A stretch of 64,000 bases of DNA, taken from NCBI RefSeq assembly GCF_009914755.1, contig NC_060930.1; one strand, written 5' to 3'. The notes beneath the pieces were generated by a model that made no database searches, was not told where the DNA came from, and saw nothing but the letters and a program-made list of their open reading frames with translations. Within the stretch, counting starts at the first letter, position 1. Every line of letters begins with the position of its first letter. Made by a program: the position numbers and the translations under genes. The stretch comes from the human T2T-CHM13v2.0 reference genome, Homo sapiens. Below are positions 11,251 through 45,169 of the stretch, piece by piece.

Positions 11251-13637
11251 AGGGAATCAGGACAGTATTGGATTTCACAGATAGCACCACAGACAGCTAT
11301 TAAAGTCTAATCCAGTGTCACATTTCTGCCCAATGCTTGCTAACTACCAGCCCAATTTGCTGGCTTCACTCACTCTGTGTTTCTTCATTGTTTCAAGCCA
11401 GGCAGAGACTTATCTTAATAATGGGTCAATCCTCAGCCAAATGTGTTCAACTGAAGGCCACCATGGGAGAATGGCAGGATATTGTCTTTCCAACAGCAAG
11501 TGAACTGCAGGCAGCTTAAGGCAATATCCATTTCACTATAATGCTGGTTTATGTTACAGCCCTTTTCAAACTTCTAATTGCCCTGTATTGCTGACATTTA
11601 TATACATGCCCTATTTTAAATGAAAACACAACACTGAGGTCAGAAGGAGGTTCTGGGACAGCAGAGACCCCAGGTGAAACCAAAGGGGGAAATTACGTTA
11701 AAACTTCTAAATGCCAAACATGTTTGAGAAAAAGAGGAAAAAAAATAAAGTCTTAGGGCAGAAAAAACATTAATCATGGCCCCACGGTATAAATTAATAA
11801 TAGCTATATTTAATACTATGTAAACTTTCTATGGTTGGATTATATAAATTTTAAATGAAAGTAAATATTATTCATTTGGCATGGTAAGTCTGGTAAGTCT
11901 CAGCTTATATAGAATAACTTTGAATATGATTTTTTCCCCTCCAAATTTCACTTTTATTTGTCAAAAGCAAACTGGGTTTCTCGGCTGCTTTTGGCAATCA
12001 CTATATGTTATGAATCTTTCAGATCATTCTACAAGTCACAATTAATAAAATAATATTTCGCATTTACATACAGCTTTTCACCTAGTATCTCATACTGTTT
12101 TAAAAGCAATAAATCATTCATTTCAGAATTGCAACTAAAGAGTCTCAAGTGTTGTTCTAACAAGTAATTTCTTCCAAGTAGCTTCAGAAGAAGCAACACA
12201 TATATAGGCTATAATCATTTTCATTTGTTTATTCATATATTCATTCACCGAGTTATTGATTCATTGATTCATATCCTGAACAAACATGTATTGCATGTGC
12301 ATGTGTACTTAACATTCTGTAGATGTAAAGCTATATAAATAAGTGTTAAAGAGCTTACATTCTAGTTGGGTTCTGGTTAAGAGACTGTTTAAGATACAAC
12401 TCTGAATGACCTGAACAAATTATTTCAATACTATGTTCTTTTAATCTCTCCGTGAACATCTTATTGAGGACTAATACATTAAGAAGTAGTCACACCGATG
12501 TTTTTCTTTTTATATAAGGTATATATATTCAAAGAAAAAACTTAGAAACAAAGAAAAAATCATTTAAAATTTAATAATTACCATTATTTCTGCTACACAG
12601 AGATAAACATTGTTAATAATTTGGCATATACATTTCTTGTCTGTTTTAAATTTTTCTACGTCTATATAAAATATATTTACTTTTTATATACATAAGATTA
12701 CAGCACACATATTGATGATTTATAACTGACTTTTAAAAATTTATAAATATATTATAAATATTTTCCCATGTCATTGAATTTTAGGTTTCAGTGTACTGAA
12801 GTCGTGGCTTTTGCTTATAGTTCTGTTTCAAATTGTGAAAGAACACTAGGTCACTAATCAAATTTATATGAAGAAACAAAAGGCACAAATACAGTCAAAT
12901 ACAAGATAAATATAAAAGACAATGTAACTGTATTTTGTATTTGTAATGCCTTTTCCCTCTGATTTAGAAACAACTACAAAATGGAATCATTATAGGTCGA
13001 AGGTGATGGGTACACAATATGTAATATGTAACTGTAACTATAAGAGCATAAAAGAGCAGGAAAACAGAGCTACACAGAAGCAATGTTTTTGTGTATTGTC
13101 AAAATTAAATTGGCATTAATCTGAACAAAACTGTTACAAATTTTTAAAAAATCATACTAAGCTCCAAGGCAGCCATTAAGAAAATATCTCAAAAACATAT
13201 TGTAAGAAAAACAAAGGAATTAAAATGGTACACTAGAAAATATCTACTTAACACAAAAGAGGGTAGTAATAAAGAATTGAGGAGAAAAAATATATAACAC
13301 ATTTAGAAAATAAATGGCAAATGTAAATTCTACCTTATCGGTAATTAGATTAAATGTAAATGGATTAAACTCTCTAATCAAAAAGAAGAGCTTACCAAAA
13401 TGGTATAAATAACTAAATAAATAAACCAACTCTGTCAAAAAGAGACTCATTCTAGATTCACTCATAAGTAGATTAAAAGTAAAAAGATGGGCAAAGATAC
13501 ATCTTGCAAATAGTGTAAAAAATGAAGTGACTACATTAATAGGAGACAAAATAGATTTTAAGCAAGAATTGTTACCAGAGACAAAGGACATTTTATAATA
13601 ATAAAAATGTCAATCTATTAAGAAGATATGGTAATTA

Positions 13638-13935
13638 TTAGGTTATTGCAAAAGTAATTGAGGTTTTTGCCATTACTTTTAATGTTTTTGTGTACTGTCA
13701 AAATTAAATTGGCATTATTCTGAATAAAACTGTTATAAATTAAAATTTTATGGTAAGCTCCAAGGCAGCCATTATTAAAATATCTTAACAACATTGGAAG
13801 AGAAACAAAAAAATTAAAATGGTACACTAGAAAATATCTACTTAACACAAAATAAAGCAGTAATGAAAACTTGAGGGGAAAAACGATATAACACTTTTAA
13901 TGACAAAAAACACAATTACTTTTGCTTCAATCTAA
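13638..13935. mobile_element. MADE1 (Hsmar1 MITE) carrying about 210 bp of inserted sequence
   Basis: TIRs TTAGGTTATTGCAAAAGTAATTG...GCCATT and AATGACAAAAAACACAATTACTTTTGCTTCAATCTAA; TA TSD at 13636 and 13936. Confidence 0.9.
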
Positions 13936-25135: not shown

Positions 25136-26910
25136 GACAAATGGGTGGATGAAAGAAAAAAAATATTTAAATAGTAAGGTAATCTTGGCTCATGCTTTTC
25201 TCTGTAAATGTGGGTGAATAAAATTGTTAAGTAAAAAGAATTAAAATTTATTTTTGTTAGTAATATACATTACCTAAAATTACTTACCTTATTACCAAAA
25301 CAAAGTATTAACTAGATCTTAATTTGATAAGAACTAAATTTTGCTGTTAATCTCAAAGTGCAGGTAAAGGTAACCTTAAATCAAATGTAAACAGAAAGCA
25401 GAGACTGAGATTCAATAATTCACCTTCTCCTTGGAAGTAGAAGCTGGGGTGAGAATAAGGACTACTGGGTGGAGAAGTCCATGGAAAACATCTGCCAGTA
25501 GTGTTTCAAAGAGTGAAGAGGGGACTTATTGTGAGTGCTATTGTCAAAGCCCCCAAAGCACAACATCAATGAAGTACTATTTATTTTTTCTATAGTCAAT
25601 AGATCAAAAGCCTATGGAGCAGTATGATCTGCTCTTTGTAAGGAGAAAAGGTCTATCCAGAGAAATGGAGAGCACATCTGGAAATATCTGTCTATGGAGC
25701 TGCTTGAAAAAAATCACCATGTAGCAGCAATAGGAGAAACATCTGTGCAGTGTGCAGCAAACCAGTCAAGGAAGGAAGCTGCTATGCGAAGAGACCACAT
25801 AATCAAGACAAAGACCAGGGTGGAGACAAGCACCCCTTGAATGACAAATCTTCCTAGATTCCATTTTTAACCACATGTAATCAGTAAGAATGATTTTCTT
25901 TTTCAAAGTATTTATATTAGCAGCACCTGCTCCAGGTGTAGCAGGGCAAAGGCAGAACACAATATCTTAAGGTGATTACTTAAAGACATTTCTATACATC
26001 ACTGAAGAGCAGAATCTGCATGTTATATGTTCACTGCAAAGTTCTAAATATTAATTATTTTAAAATCATGCATTAGAGAAGCTCATAAACATGGATTTTA
26101 ACCCAAAGTACCTTAAACGTGGTTTTCTTATACAACTTATTTACATGAGCTTTTAATCAAAAGTAGTGTGAAGATAATTTTTTTATCAAAACTAACACCA
26201 ATTCAGCAATTTTTTAAAAAACATGGTTTTGTTTTGTTACATGTGAGTTAGTGTCATCACACTAGTTTCAAAAAATAAGTGTGCATGTGAATATTCAGTT
26301 GCATACTCTTTAAAAGACAAATTCACTAGATTATTGCTCATATTCCTAATACAACAGCTCTATCTGTTTTAGTAAATTAACTAACTCCACTATTCAATTA
26401 AAATATGAATGAAAGTCTTCATTTTCATCAACAACTTTAAAATACTGCACTGCTGTGAAACAAGATTAAAAGTATGCTCGATGTTCTTGTTATCTATGAA
26501 ATTTGGCTGGTAAACACGCTGTTCCCAATATTGGTGTTAATTAACAAGTTGTCACTTTGCATTAGGCTGGAATTGTCTAATGCTTTCAATACATCTTGAG
26601 GCTGTGTTTACACTACAAAGTGCAACATGGAAAAAGTCATGTAGATATTTCAGACTAAAAAAAATCCTGTTGAAGAAAACACGAGGCAATTTTTTTAGAA
26701 TCAACCACCTTGGCATTCCGTATTAAATCGTATCACTAGAATATTCCTCAATTATTTTCATTTTTCTCAGTCCATGTTGCCAGAAGTTAAAAAGGGAAAA
26801 AAAGATTATTTTTAACTAATCAAGATAGGCTCCAAATAGAATATCCTATGCCTATAATTTACAAATTAATTGTGTACTTCCATTCATTTAATCCTTTCCA
26901 CATTCCTTTA

Positions 26911-29624: not shown

Positions 29625-31135
29625 CAGATAAATAGACCAATGGAACAGAATAAACAGCCCAGAAACAGACCTACGCAAATAGAGTGAACTGGTACATAAT
29701 GAAAAAGCAGAGACAATTCAGTGGAGGAAGAATAGTCTTTACACCAAATGATGCTAAAATATTCACATGTTTTTAAAAAATGAATCTAGCACAGATTATA
29801 TCTTCCACAAAAATTAGCTCAAAATGGATCATAGACCTAGATATAAGGCTCCAAACTATAACAACTTACAGGCTATAGCATAAGAGACTAGCTGATATTA
29901 GGTTTGGTAATGACTACTTACATACAGCACTAAAAGCATGATCTCTGAAAGAAAAATGTAATACATTGGACTTTATTAAAATTAAAAGATCTGCTCTACA
30001 AAAGACCCCGTTAAAAGAGTGAAAAGTCAAGGCACTGACTGGAAGACAATATTTGCAAAACACTTCTCTGATAAAGAGCTTGTATCCAAAATATATGAAG
30101 AACTCTTAAAACTCAACAGTAAAACAAGCAACCCAATTTAAAAATGGGTAAAAGATGTGAACAGACACCTCATAAATGAAAAAAAACCAATGGCAAGTGA
30201 GCTCCTGAAAAGACACTTCACATCATACATCAAGAGGGAAATGCAAATTAAAACAATATGAAATACCACTCTACACATCTATTAGAATAGCTGAAACACA
30301 AATACTGACAACAAATGCTGACAAAGATGTGCAAAAGGAACTCTCATTAATTGCTGGTGGGAGACCAAAATGGTATAGTTACTTTGAAAGAGTATTTGGC
30401 CATTTCTTTAAAAAATAAACATACTCTTACCTTACTATCTGCCAATTGAAACTCTAGGTATTTACCCAAAGGAGTTGGAAATTTATGTCCATGCAAATGT
30501 TTATAACAGCATTATTTGTGATTGCCAAAAACTGGAAGTCACCAAGACATCTTTCAATAGGTAAAGGGATAAACAACTGTGGTACATCCATACAATAGAA
30601 TATTATTCAGCAAAAAGAAGAATAATCTATCAAGCTATGAAAAAAAATGCAAGAAAACTTAAATGCATATTGCTAGCTAAGTGAAAGAATGAAGCAAATC
30701 TTAAAAAACTACATTCTGTATGATTCCAACCATGACATTCTGGAAGAGACAAAACTAGAGATAAAAAAGACCAGTGCTTGTGAGGGGTTTATGGGGAGAG
30801 AGAGAGGGATGAATGGGTGGAGGAGCACAGAAGATTTTGGGGGAAGTGAAAGCATTCTGCCTGAACCTATAATGATGCATATATGACATTATGCATTTGT
30901 CAAAATCCATAGAACTATATAGTACAGAGAATGGACCCTAATGTAAACTCTGCACTTTAGTTAATATAAGGTACTAATATTAGTTCATCAGTTGTAACAA
31001 ATATGCCACAGTAATGCAAGATGTTAATAAAGGAAACTGTATGTGGAGAAAGAGGGAGTGTATGGGGACTCTGTACTTTCTGCTCAACTTTTCTATAAAC
31101 AAAACACTGCTCTAAAAAATAGTCTATTAATACTT
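29625..31135 (+). mobile_element. L1MC-class 3' ORF2 and 3'UTR
   Basis: GACCAATGGAACAGAATA...CCCTAATGTAAACT...CTCTGTACTTTCTGCTCAA...CTGCTCTAAAAAATAGTCTATT. Confidence 0.85.
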
Positions 31136-31144
31136 TTTTAAATG

Positions 31145-32400
31145 CCATGTGAGTTGAGAGTGGGAAATACTGCTTCCAGTCAGAATAATCAGGGAAAATA
31201 AAACTACCTGGAAGGGACAGTATTCCAAATATACTTTGACAGATGGTTAGGATTTGGATAATATGATATCCTATGTACAGTAAGGACATTCAGATAGATG
31301 AAAGACAGAGGTAACATTCTCAACCCAATAGTTAAGCAAATGTGCAAATCAGCTCATCCGTGACCAGTAATATTTACTATTTAACATATGTGAGACTAAG
31401 TTCTCTTATAAGTAGAAATAATTATTTCTACTTATAGAATATTGGTGTTAATTAACAAGTTGTCAGTTTACATTAGGCTGGAATTGTCTAATGCTTTCAT
31501 ATATATAATGGGTAAGCAAATCTTAAATGTACCATTCAATGAGTTTAACAATTTCATATACATTTATAAAATAAACCTTCATGAAAATAAAGAACATTTT
31601 GACGAAGGATACTATATTATAGGATAATCCTATAATATAGAAGCATAAATATATAATAATCCTAGAAAAATAGTCCCATAACTATTTCTACTATTAATAG
31701 GAATGCCTTCAGTGAGTATAGGTTGCAATGGATACTGCAATAGTAGAGTGGATTTAGAAGGACTGAAAAGACAGTAGGAAAAATGATTGATATCATTTTA
31801 TGAGAATAACTAAAAGCAAATCTGAATGCCATCTAAAGACTTTGGACAATACTCTGTTTTTAAGAAGGAGATTGGAGAACAATCAGTGCTTTGGTCAAAT
31901 GTGCTAACATTTGTAACGTGTCTAGTACTGTGGCAGTCACACTAGATGTTAAAGATGGCAAAATGTTAAGGAAACCACAAAGAAGAGAATAGCAATGAGG
32001 TGAGGATTTTCAACACTGTCAAATACTACAAAGGTGTTGGGGAATTTGAAAAGGGATTCAAAGGCATTGGATCTATCAACCATTGGAGACTTTTGGGAGG
32101 ACTGTTTCCACAGAGCAGTTGGAGCAATAGACAAAGACATGGTTTTCAAAGGTGTATGTAGTAAGGAACTGGAAAAAGCAGCAGAAACAACTCTTTGTCT
32201 CAAAGTTTGGTTATGAAAAAAGGAGACACCTAGGAAAATAACTCAGAGGGGTAGCAAAATACTATTCTTGGATGGGAGAAGACTCGATCATGCATAAAAG
32301 TACAGAATTTTTTGATAATACTAAAGAAGCAAAAGAAATAATATATAGAGGGTGAGGAATAAAAGCACATATGGTGGATAGATAATAAGAAGGGGTAGAG
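31145..32400 (-). mobile_element. L2 fragments interrupted at about 31310-31700
   Basis: L2-like GATGGTTAGGATTTGGATA before the interruption; TGAATGCCATCTAAAGACTTTGGAC and CATTGGATCTATCAAC after it. Confidence 0.55.
31407..31690. repeat. Composite templated insertion (palindromes plus local copies)
   Basis: 30-bp palindrome 31407-31436; 31438-31499 matches 26527-26588; 31500-31596 matches the reverse complement of 33964-34060; 29-bp hairpin 31612-31640. Confidence 0.9.
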
Positions 32401-33474: not shown

Positions 33475-34335
33475 CACACCAAATGTTGGCAAGAATATGG
33501 AGTAACCATAGGTCTCATGTATTTTTAATAGAAATTGAAAAAAGATATGGAAATTTCTCATAAAACTAAACACATATTTACTTTAGGTTCCAACAATTTC
33601 ACCACTAGGTATTTTTCTGAGGAAAAGAAAATGTATACAGGAATATTTGTAGCACCTGTTATTCATGATAGCCTCAAACTCAAAACAATGCAGGTGTTTA
33701 TTAATAGACAGATAAACAGTAGTATATTCATGCAATGGAAACTTACCCATAAAAAGGAACAAACTACTGATACAACAAAATGAATAAATCTCAAAAACAA
33801 AATACTAAATGAAAAAAATACACGAAAGAAATTCTTTTTATATGAAGTCTTAAAAAAGGCAAACTAATCTATGGTTGAAAAGCATCAGAGCATTGGTTGC
33901 CTCTGAGGTGGCAATTACAAAAAATAACTGATAAGAACCAAAGATAAATTTCGGGAATGGTAGTGTTCTTTATTTTGATGAAGGTTTATTTTATAAATGT
34001 ATATGAAATTGTCAAACTCATTGAATGCTATATTTAAGATTTGGTTATTCATTGTATATAACTTTTACTTCCAAAAATATAACTAAACAACTATTGAACT
34101 CACTGATACATGTGATGAAGTGTTTAGGGGTGAAATATACTGATGTCTGCAACTTACTTTGAAATGAATTATAATTAAGATGGATTGGCTTACAGAAAGA
34201 GGGACAGATAGATATGTGACAAAACACATATACTAAAATGTTACTGACAGAATTAAGGTAGCGAGATATTTATGTTTACATACAATTCTTTCATTTTTCT
34301 GAGTATTAAAACAATTTTATAATAAAATGTTGGGA
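33475..34335 (+). mobile_element. Old L1ME/L1MC-class 3' end fragments
   Basis: ACCAAATGTTGGCAAGAATATGGAG, GAATAAATCTCAAAAAC, GGCAAACTAATCTATGG and TGATGTCTGCAACTTACTTTGAAATG. Confidence 0.75.
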
Positions 34336-43653: not shown

Positions 43654-45169
43654 TCAGCCTTTACAATTACTCCTCAGTATCCAGTAACTACTCTTGGGCC
43701 CCACAGAAGACAGGCCAACTGTCGACTTTCATGTCTGTTATGACTTATTCTTGAAATATGTCACCATGAAGTCTAAAAAGCTTGATGCCCCATTCAACAC
43801 ATTTTGAGTTACATTTTTGAAAGAGGATGTTTGGGCAATGACACACAAATTATATGCACAAAGAAAATTAATTATTTGCAGACATGTAGTATAATTATAT
43901 GAGTTTATGCTATCCATCTGTGAACCTTAGTCTCCCCTAGTGCAAGCACTGCATATAATAAAAAAGGTTTAACAGCTTTCAGAAAAATGTATTATGCTTA
44001 CTTTTGCATAATTATGCAAATGATTGTTTCCTTTTGCACAAGAGTGCAAAATGTATTATGCTTACTTTTGCACAAGAGCAAACTCTTCATTATTTGATGG
44101 CATTCATTGGCTCATATGAGTGGAAGGAAACTTAAAGGGCCAACTGGTCCATTCCCTGGCAGTCAAGAGGGACAACTTTCAAACAAACCTTGAAAGATGG
44201 TGCCAAGGATCTGCCACTGGTGCCAGTTGAAGAAATATACCATTGTTTAATCTTTCACCCTCAGAAAGATTTCCTGTTACTGTGTCTATATTTCTTGCAA
44301 CAATTTAAAGTATCCTCAATAATTGGGGGTAAAAAGATGCAGACTAATGCCTGGTCACCTCCTCTATGTTAAAATGCTTCATGACTGAGCGTTGTTATTC
44401 AGTAATTTCTACCTCCTCTTTAGACCAAGTAATATCACTATGATTAGCTTTTCCCCAGAGGTCTTATTTTATCAAACAATAATTTTCAGTAAATCTCATA
44501 CTCAATTTCTAATGATAAAAATCCTTTTTATCATTAGATGAGAAGATCTTTCCAGAGGTCTTTTTATGCATGTTTAAAATTTGTATTGGCATCACACCAG
44601 CTTTTAATGACAGCTTCATGTGCCCTCCATATCCAAGTGCCTTGTTATTATAGCACAAAGGCATAAAAGTTGACTTGGCAAATGCACAAGATACAGAAAG
44701 AGGTAAAAAGAAGGGTGTTTACCTTTGTCCTGGGTATGAAGGGGTGCTTTACAAAAGACATGACCTTCAGCTTCAGCTTCAAGAACGAGAAAGAGTTTTC
44801 CAACAGAAGAAAGAGAGTTACTTTTAGAGGAAATATATGAATGGAATCCCAGAAGAGATGCAAGGTGTTTCATGCAAGTCAGCAATGCTGACACATAGGG
44901 TAGGGAATAAAGTGAGGAAAGGAGGAATGTAAGATGTATTGAGCATTGTCTATGTGTTAGATCCATCATATATATGATTTCATTTCATCTTCATTATGGT
45001 TGCATATGCTGACTCACATTTTGCCTATGATGAATCCAAGGGGTTAATACTTTGCCCACAGTGAGACAGACAGTGAGTAGCAAAGCCAGGATGAGAACCC
45101 TGGACTGGCCGATAGTAAAGCACATGCTCTGTGTTCATCATATTATTCTCTCACTCAGTCCAATAGAGG

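What the first reader, a model, noticed from the sequence alone, without database searches (positions are those of the whole stretch)
31407..31690. Mosaic templated insertion stitched from two distant local donors and flanking hairpins
Seen, in order: (a) a perfect 30-bp palindrome TATAAGTAGAAATAA|TTATTTCTACTTATA at 31407-31436; (b) 31438-31499, a direct copy of apparently unique sequence 26527-26588 (60/62 identical, 4.9 kb upstream); (c) abutting it, 31500-31596, an ungapped inverted copy of 33964-34060 (89/97 identical, about 2.4 kb downstream), far more similar than two independent old L1M copies would be; (d) a hairpin with perfect 14-bp arms, CTATATTATAGGAT-A-ATCCTATAATATAG, at 31612-31640; (e) a bulged hairpin TAGAAAAATAGT...ACTATTTCTA at about 31663-31690. 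The patch appears to interrupt an L2. Established: fold-back synthesis with multi-donor template switching is typical of Pol theta-mediated end joining or FoSTeS/MMBIR. Inference: this is a fixed germline repair scar of primate age that sampled templates on both sides of the break.
Basis: partly seen in the sequence, partly recalled or inferred. Interest (0 to 1): 0.8.

Follow-up and report, generated by a model that had tools for sequence, protein, structure and literature searches.

The report
Old multi-donor templated insertion scar
A roughly 240-base patch in a gene-poor stretch of human chromosome 6 was stitched together long ago from copies of two nearby sequences plus several fold-back copies, a well-preserved but ordinary kind of DNA repair scar.

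Summary
31438-31499 is a direct copy of 26527-26588 (60/62). It abuts 31500-31596, an inverted copy of 33964-34060 (89/97). Two perfect hairpins (31407-31436, 31612-31640) lie beside them.

Searches of the window's whole assembly find no other place for either segment. The 33964-34060 donor sits inside a dispersed repeat whose 13 independent copies are 54-78% alike over the same 97 columns. Patch and donor are 92% alike and share 17 private states, so the patch was copied from this donor.

New here: 31597-31621, right after segment c, copies the donor's opposite strand (33973-33995, 20/23 plus one gap). That is a third fold-back, starting exactly at the junction.

Best reading: one error-prone copy-and-paste repair or replication event with serial template switches (MMBIR/FoSTeS-like or polymerase-theta-like). 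I cannot tell these apart. The two junctions that can be scored show no microhomology.

The 10/159 differences suggest an age of very roughly 10-35 million years. This rests on recalled mutation rates.

No orthologues or population data were available. The empty site, fixation, the exact age and the "L2" host could not be tested. It is a new example of a known kind, of modest interest.

The parts
31403..31425 (+). Left boundary stretch, inverted match to the right flank 31678-31700 (19/23). It runs 4 nt past the centre of palindrome (a). Possible copy of the flank, or one arm of an older inverted repeat.
   Evidence: I1; local alignment score 15, reached by 17 of 2000 shuffles.
31407..31436 (.). 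(a) Perfect 30-nt palindrome: 15-nt arms, no spacer, self-complementary 8-nt centre.
   Evidence: None of this size in 60 simulated 64-kb sequences.
31437..31437 (+). Single G between (a) and (b) with no template found.
   Evidence: junction print.
31438..31499 (+). (b) Direct copy of 26527-26588, 60/62. Mismatches at 31466 and 31470.
26527..26588 (+). Donor of (b). Lies in sequence with no other place in the assembly.
31500..31596 (+). (c) Inverted copy of 33964-34060, 89/97 ungapped. 6 of the 8 mismatches lie in the first 32 nt.
   Evidence: Fisher test p = 0.015.
33964..34060 (-). Donor of (c), inside a continuous copy of a dispersed repeat family. I recall it as an L1M-type 3' end; this was not verified.
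   Evidence: 534 first-look candidates, 40 scored, other copies 66-83% identical..
31597..31621 (+). (f) New: fold-back copy of the donor's opposite strand 33973-33995 (20/23 plus one 2-nt gap). It forms a hairpin with 31565-31587 across the 9-nt loop 31588-31596.
   Evidence: 0 of 1300 other 97-nt windows reach the score; 17 of 5000 shuffles do. The stem appears in the MFE and centroid folds.
31612..31640 (.). (d) Hairpin with perfect 14-nt arms and a 1-nt loop. Its left arm overlaps the end of (f). 31618-31635 also resembles 31650-31667 (15/18), which is not significant alone.
   Evidence: (I3, D2).
31641..31662 (+). Stretch with no template found, probably the start of the original right flank.
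   Evidence: no other match with up to 3 mismatches in the window; no other place in the assembly.
31663..31690 (.). (e) Bulged hairpin: 10 bp, 2-nt bulge, 6-nt loop. It shares its stem motif with (a): 31678-31692 vs 31418-31432, 14/15 direct.
   Evidence: (D3).

Best explanation
About 31403/31407 to 31640 is a templated insertion. It is the scar of a single break or stalled fork that was healed by a low-fidelity, low-processivity polymerase. That polymerase copied one template after another without removing the donors.

Proposed order along the + strand:
1. A short copy related to the right flank, then a fold-back that made palindrome (a).
2. One orphan G.
3. 62 nt copied in direct orientation from 4.9 kb upstream (b).
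4. 97 nt copied in inverted orientation from 2.4 kb downstream (c).
5. A switch to the opposite strand 9 nt back, copying about 23 nt (f).
6. A last fold-back that made hairpin (d), then rejoining at about 31641.

Shown: the copies, their orientation, their uniqueness in the assembly, the direction for (c), and the fold-back at the end of (c).

Inferred: that all steps belong to one event, the order of steps, the enzyme, and the age. The age is about 10-35 million years, from 6.3% pairwise difference (95% interval 3.0-11.6%) and recalled rates of 1-2.2e-9 per site per year.

The pathway class is replicative template switching (MMBIR/FoSTeS-type) or polymerase-theta-type end joining. I cannot separate them. 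No function is implied. The patch lies in an intron of a predicted lncRNA.
For: - Copies and sharp ends.
- No other place in the 3.1-Gb assembly for (b), (c), 31597-31700, 31250-31437 or 26300-26850.
- The donor of (c) belongs to a dispersed family (534 candidates, 40 scored). 13 independent copies are aligned over the same 97 columns. Their 78 pairwise identities have mean 0.668, sd 0.049, max 0.784. Patch to donor is 0.918.
- In 17 columns patch = donor while >=8 of the 13 others share another state.
- Family homology continues past both ends in the donor only.
- Fold-back (f): 31597-31621 against the donor + strand 33973-33995 scores 13.5. 0 of 1300 other windows reach that; 17 of 5000 shuffles do; 0 of 5000 also start at the junction.
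- At 31601 the fold-back keeps the donor-type base, while its partner 31583 now differs. This agrees with the independent polarisation of 31583 as a later change on the patch side.
- Hairpins (a) and (d) are 2 of only 3 in 64 kb, against 0 expected.
- The DNA fold of 31395-31705 is -34.1 kcal/mol, z = -4.2, with 0 of 100 shuffles as stable.
- The 10 differences rule out a chimeric-read or assembly artefact, which would be identical to its sources.
- Published germline templated insertions in people can be complex, with up to five templates (PMC8421209, passages read).
Against: - Junctions a/b and b/c show 0 nt of microhomology, and there is one orphan base. Both candidate pathways normally use 1-6 nt. 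After about 6% divergence this is weak evidence against, but it is not what the model predicts.
- The short-range pieces are less alike than the long-range ones: 19/23, 15/18 and 20/23 against 60/62 and 89/97. They may be older, partly chance, or made with more errors.
- With all 66 nt after (c) shuffled, the fold-back score is reached by 168 of 3000 shuffles.
- (a) and (d) are perfect, whereas about one mismatch each is expected at 6.3% divergence. P(none) is 0.38 and 0.40. They could be younger, separate events.
- Mismatches in (c) cluster (6 of 32 against 2 of 65, p = 0.015). 5 changes fall on the patch side and 2 on the donor side; that split is not significant (p = 0.45).
- No empty site was seen, so the insertion limits are inferred.
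Confidence: 0.7

Rival explanations
1. Several separate events at one fragile AT-rich site. One or two templated insertions brought in (b) and (c). Later short-range template-switch mutations of the Loytynoja-Goldman type then made or perfected hairpins (a), (d) and perhaps (f).
For: - (a) and (d) are perfect while (b), (c) and (f) carry 3-13% differences.
- The site is 76% A+T, against 64% for the window.
- Short template switches that create hairpins are common in human-chimpanzee comparisons (PMC5453318, abstract read).
Against: - (b) and (c) abut with no base between them, and (f) starts at the first base after (c). That ties these three together.
- Perfect arms are not unlikely at this age (P = 0.38 and 0.40).
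- Three of the window's hairpin-forming features lie within 240 nt of the chimera.
Confidence: 0.17
2. End joining that captured ready-made DNA or cDNA fragments (a class 2 TSIP-like 'patch'). Two free fragments from the same transcription unit were ligated into a break, rather than copied by a switching polymerase.
For: - Blunt a/b and b/c junctions with 0 nt of microhomology and one untemplated base.
- No poly(A) and the donors are retained, as described for class 2 TSIPs (PMC5110952, passages read).
- All three sites lie inside the span of one predicted lncRNA gene (hub annotation).
Against: - (f) continues from the end of (c) onto the donor's other strand, 9 nt back. That is a polymerase strand switch, not the end of a ligated fragment, unless the fragment was itself a hairpin.
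- Both donors lie within 5 kb. The passages read describe class 2 TSIP donors as distant genomic regions, and the experimental inserts mapped to 18 of 24 chromosomes.
- (b) and (c) have opposite orientation relative to any single transcript.
Confidence: 0.09
3. Not a real event: chance similarity, members of a dispersed repeat with equally close copies elsewhere, a mobile element with terminal inverted repeats, or an assembly error.
For: - (c) lies in a repeat family.
- The 31403-31425 / 31678-31700 pair looks like terminal inverted repeats.
Against: - E-values of 5e-21 and 6e-32.
- No other copy of any part in the assembly.
- Other family copies are at most 78% alike over the segment.
- An artefact would be identical to its sources, not 6% different.
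Confidence: 0.03

Closest known systems
Germline microhomology-mediated BIR templated insertions (MMB-TI), including complex multi-template ones (Osia et al. 2021, PMC8421209; passages read)
   Same: The inserted DNA is a copy of nearby sequence, partly in inverted orientation. Several templates are used in a row. It is present in the germline without a larger rearrangement.
   Different: Those events were defined with templates within 100 bp and with microhomology at the junctions. Here two templates are 2.4 and 4.9 kb away, the pieces are 62 and 97 nt, and the junctions that can be scored show no microhomology. This one is old and diverged, not a polymorphism seen in reads.
Polymerase-theta-mediated end joining with templated inserts (van Schendel et al. 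2015, PMC4490562; passages read)
   Same: Inserts are copied from DNA close to the break. Priming uses minimal pairing. The scars are heritable and shape genomes. The fold-backs here can be primed by 1-3 bp of pairing (my reading of the sequence).
   Different: The passages read describe inserts identical to sequence in close proximity to the break, with single-nucleotide homology. 62-97-nt copies from kilobases away are not the typical product. Dependence on POLQ cannot be tested on a fossil.
Short-range template-switch mutations, four-point model (Loytynoja and Goldman 2017, PMC5453318; abstract and outline read)
   Same: Reverse-complement copying of neighbouring sequence creates perfect hairpins and mutation clusters. 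This fits (a), (d) and (f).
   Different: That model covers local switches only. It does not bring in direct and inverted copies from kilobases away.
Class 2 templated sequence insertion polymorphisms (Onozawa and Aplan 2016, PMC5110952; passages read)
   Same: A patch copied from elsewhere fills a break. The donor is retained. There is no target-site duplication of the L1 type and no poly(A). Untemplated bases can occur.
   Different: Those patches are thought to come from RNA and from distant regions. Here both donors are local, the two pieces have opposite orientation, and fold-backs are attached.

Membership tests
Templated insertion by replicative template switching (MMBIR/FoSTeS type) | The inserted sequence matches a template elsewhere, and the template is retained. 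| tested here: met
   60/62 and 89/97. Both donors are still in place.
Templated insertion by replicative template switching (MMBIR/FoSTeS type) | The copy is derived and the donor is original (direction). | tested here: met
   For (c): family homology runs through the donor's ends only, and there are 17 shared private states. For (b): by adjacency only.
Templated insertion by replicative template switching (MMBIR/FoSTeS type) | Several templates in both orientations are joined in series. | tested here: met
   Direct (b), inverted (c), and a strand switch (f).
Templated insertion by replicative template switching (MMBIR/FoSTeS type) | Microhomology at the switch points. | tested here: not met
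   0 nt at a/b and b/c in today's sequence, and at most 1 nt at c/f. Age weakens the test.
Templated insertion by replicative template switching (MMBIR/FoSTeS type) | An ancestral empty site without the insert. | not testable with these tools
   No primate or other mammalian genomes were on hand.
Polymerase theta end joining (TMEJ) | Short inserts copied from the immediate flanks, including snap-back copies. | tested here: inconclusive
   (a), (d), (f) and the 31403-31425 / 31678-31700 pair fit. (b) and (c) are long and come from kilobases away.
Polymerase theta end joining (TMEJ) | Dependence on POLQ. | not testable with these tools
   It is a fossil event.
L1-mediated insertion (class 1 TSIP or retrocopy) | Poly(A) tail, an L1-type target-site duplication, and a TTTT/A target. 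| tested here: not met
   There is no A or T run at either end of the patch. The only flanking direct repeat (14/15) lies inside hairpins (a) and (e).
DNA transposon or MITE | Terminal inverted repeats plus further copies in the genome. | tested here: not met
   There is a TIR-like 19/23 pair, but no other copy of any part in the assembly.
   No repeat library was on hand. The donor is in a dispersed family. Pfam found no reverse transcriptase or endonuclease in 20 flank ORFs, 15 ORFs upstream of the donor, or 60 ORFs from 28 family loci. The flanks match nothing else.

The most novel reading that the evidence does not exclude
The site was already a short AT-rich inverted repeat (31403-31425 pairing with 31678-31700, related to hairpin e). 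It extruded and broke at its tip. The zero-loop and one-base-loop palindromes (a) and (d) would then record hairpin-capped or self-primed ends. The whole patch would be a single burst of at least six template switches that sampled both the local flanks and donors kilobases away. The mismatch clusters would themselves be micro-switches: an exact 13-mer and an exact 14-mer from 0.5-0.8 kb upstream cover 3 of the 10 mismatches, against a 1.5% background coverage (roughly p = 0.004, post hoc). If so, this is a rare fossil that links palindrome breakage, fold-back priming and long-range templating in one primate germline event.
Probability: 0.12. Interest if true: 0.5.

Novelty: new member of a known kind. 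Interest (0 to 1): 0.3.

Why it matters
Complex templated insertions are mostly known from patients, tumours and recent polymorphisms. An old and still legible example in neutral DNA shows three things. The same multi-switch process has left heritable scars in the primate lineage. It can reach templates several kilobases away on both sides. It creates perfect hairpins de novo.

The case is also a caution for repeat annotation and for dating. An isolated 97-nt repeat fragment here is a local copy, not an independent insertion.

It has no evident function and does not open a new question.

Tried and rejected
- Further donors: whole-assembly searches with 31597-31700, 31250-31437, 30900-31406 and 31641-32200 found none. 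The only result was that 30900-31145 belongs to an abundant ~240-bp repeat (2326 first-look candidates, 40 scored).
- Window scans for 31597-31611 and 31641-31662 with up to 3 mismatches: the first gave 5 hits against 2.7 expected, one of them inside the donor, which led to fold-back (f). The second gave only itself.
- Window scans for the arms of (a), (d) and (e) with up to 2 mismatches found no other template.
- L2 or L1 identity: nhmmer of the flanks against 184 kb of other loci plus the rest of the window gave nothing for the three right-side and middle queries. The left flank 31146-31406 gave one hit at E = 0.91. Pfam scans were empty.
- RNA families: one sub-threshold snoRNA hit (28 bits against a gathering score of 40), taken as chance.
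- The third hairpin at 44508-44538 has no templated neighbours.
- A whole-window self-comparison found no other short, high-identity, non-family local copies of this size. The one other candidate, a 44-nt pair at 1087/4770, looks to me, by recall, like a common repeat.
- Rejected: L1-mediated insertion, MITE, gene conversion (no homologous recipient), and assembly artefact.

Full report
**What is there**

Reading 31200-31900 and comparing it with the whole window on both strands confirms each item of the finding.
- 31407-31436 is a perfect 30-nt palindrome.
- 31438-31499 equals 26527-26588 in direct orientation at 60 of 62 positions.
- The very next base starts 31500-31596, which equals the reverse complement of 33964-34060 at 89 of 97 positions without gaps.
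- 31612-31640 has perfect 14-nt arms around one base.
- 31663-31690 is a weaker hairpin: 10 bp, a 2-nt bulge and a 6-nt loop.

Identity to the donors drops to 2-6 of 20 in the 20 nt beyond each of the four segment ends. The segments are sharply bounded.

**Is it more than chance or a repeat family?**

The assembly that holds the window (3.1 Gb, 24 contigs) could be searched.
- The whole patch, (b) alone and (c) alone each match only themselves and the local donor.
- 31597-31700, 31250-31437 and the donor context 26300-26850 have no other place.
- That tool scores only the best word-sharing candidates, so very diverged copies are missed. Close ones should not be.

With a 601-nt query the donor region of (c) does turn out to lie in a dispersed family. 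There were 534 first-look candidates, of which 40 were scored, and the other copies are 66-83% identical.

Of the 28 family loci returned, I kept the 13 that BLAST aligned across essentially the whole 97-nt segment and dropped the rest. I aligned these 13 with the patch and the donor.
- Over the 97 columns, the 78 pairs of independent copies are 53.6-78.4% identical (mean 66.8%, sd 4.9%).
- The donor is at most 77% identical to any of them, and the patch at most 74%.
- Patch and donor are 91.8% identical to each other.
- In 17 columns patch and donor share a state while at least 8 of the 13 others share a different one.
- In the donor, family homology continues on both sides of the segment. 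In the patch it stops at the segment ends.

So (c) was copied from this particular donor after the donor had acquired most of its private changes. It is not an independent insertion of the same family. Pfam found no LINE protein remnants in 15 ORFs upstream of the donor or in 60 ORFs from 28 family loci.

The hairpins are also far from chance.
- The window holds only three perfect hairpins with arms of 11 nt or more and loops up to 8 nt. Two of them are (a) and (d).
- 60 simulated 64-kb sequences gave none with 14-nt arms. Sequence simulated at the local 76% A+T composition gave one per 1.5 Mb.
- A self-comparison of the whole window shows no other short, high-identity local copies outside obvious repeat families. 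The one other candidate is a 44-nt pair that looks to me, by recall, like a common repeat.

**New anatomy**

A scan for the 15 nt that follow (c) gave a 12/15 hit inside the donor, on its other strand.

Aligned properly, 31597-31621 matches the donor's + strand 33973-33995 at 20 of 23 aligned positions with one 2-nt gap. The match starts at the first base after (c) and 9 nt back from the donor's end.
- None of 1300 other 97-nt windows of the 64 kb reaches that score.
- 17 of 5000 shuffles of the 30-nt query reach it, and none of them also starts at the junction.
- With all 66 nt after (c) shuffled, 168 of 3000 reach it. The strength of this result therefore depends on the framing.

This is a third fold-back. 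Arms 31565-31587 and 31597-31621 pair across the loop 31588-31596. The stem appears in the minimum-energy and centroid DNA folds of the region (-34.1 kcal/mol, z = -4.2).

There is a small internal check. The fold-back keeps the donor-type base opposite 31583, while 31583 itself now differs from the donor. The family alignment independently marks 31583 as a change on the patch side (11 of 13 copies carry the donor's base).

The left arm of hairpin (d) overlaps the end of this fold-back.

The left boundary 31403-31425 is an inverted 19/23 match to the right flank 31678-31700 (17 of 2000 shuffles as good). 31418-31432 is a direct 14/15 match to 31678-31692 (65 of 2000). Palindrome (a) and hairpin (e) are therefore related.

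31618-31635 resembles 31650-31667 (15/18). That is not significant on its own.

**Differences between copy and donor**

There are 10 in 159 positions: 6.3%, with a Poisson 95% interval of 3.0-11.6%.

In (c), 6 of the 8 fall in the first 32 nt (Fisher p = 0.015). By the family alignment, 5 are changes on the patch side, 2 on the donor side and 1 is unclear. A 5 to 2 split is not significant (p = 0.45).

An exact 13-mer (31465-31477 = reverse complement of 30937-30949) covers both mismatches of (b). An exact 14-mer (31514-31527 = 30692-30705) covers one mismatch of (c). Only 1.5% of window bases are covered by such nearby exact 13-mers. This hints that some 'mismatches' are tiny extra template switches or synthesis errors.

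**Mechanism**

The donors are intact, so this was copying, not cut and paste. Direct and inverted pieces are joined base to base, and a strand switch continues from the end of one of them. That points to a polymerase hopping between templates.

Fold-backs (a) and (d) have self-complementary centres that could prime on themselves with 2-3 bp. (f) needs only 1 bp. This is my reading of the sequence.

The published kinds that work like this are:
- MMBIR/FoSTeS-type templated insertions. Complex germline cases with up to five templates are reported in people (PMC8421209, passages read).
- Polymerase-theta end joining with templated inserts (PMC4490562, passages read).
- Short-range template switches that create hairpins (PMC5453318, abstract and outline read).

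Against a simple fit, junctions a/b and b/c show no microhomology and there is one orphan G. That fits end joining of captured fragments (class 2 TSIP, PMC5110952, passages read). The fold-back at the end of (c) argues against plain fragment capture.

I put 0.70 on one multi-switch templated event, 0.17 on several events at a fragile site, 0.09 on fragment capture and 0.03 on an artefact or repeat explanation.

**Age**

With recalled long-term primate rates of 1-2.2e-9 per site per year, 6.3% between the copies gives about 15-33 million years. It is less if the clustered changes arose during synthesis. The 2-3 donor-side changes in 97 nt give a similar range.

This is inference only. No orthologous sequence, population data or repeat library was available. 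'Fixed', 'primate age', the empty site and the 'L2' host remain untested. The flanks 31146-31406 and 31641-32200 match nothing else in the assembly. nhmmer of the flanks found nothing beyond one E = 0.91 hit for the left flank. The flank ORFs carry no LINE domains.

**Verdict**

This is a real and unusually legible complex templated insertion. It is a new example of a known kind, with no sign of function (Rfam gave only a sub-threshold chance hit). Interest is modest.

Noticed in passing
window 44508-44538: The only other perfect hairpin in the window: 14-nt arms and a 3-nt loop. It sits between two copies of a ~19-nt direct repeat, at about 44454-44472 and 44553-44571. No templated segments lie next to it.
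   Followed up: partly
window 43984-44008 and 44048-44072: An exact 25-nt direct repeat 64 nt apart, with further partial repetition of the following bases. It looks like a small slippage or templated duplication.
   Followed up: no
window 31465-31477 / 30937-30949 and 31514-31527 / 30692-30705: An exact 13-mer (inverted) and an exact 14-mer (direct) from 0.5-0.8 kb upstream cover 3 of the 10 bases where the patch differs from its donors. Background coverage by such nearby exact words is 1.5% of bases. These may be micro-template switches or coincidence.
   Followed up: partly
window 30900-31145: A member of a very abundant ~240-bp interspersed repeat: 2326 first-look candidates in the assembly, and the 40 scored are 75-78% identical. 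It lies 260 nt left of the patch. The family was not named.
   Followed up: no
window 30384-30622 and 33535-33762: A direct 62% match over 239 nt. It is a second, separate fragment of the repeat family that holds the donor of (c).
   Followed up: no
window 13082-13305 and 13681-13899: A direct repeat of about 220 nt at 85% identity, 600 nt apart.
   Followed up: no
window 31781-31800: Another small hairpin just right of the patch, with 8-nt arms and a 4-nt loop. I read it from the sequence print. It was not tested for significance.
   Followed up: no
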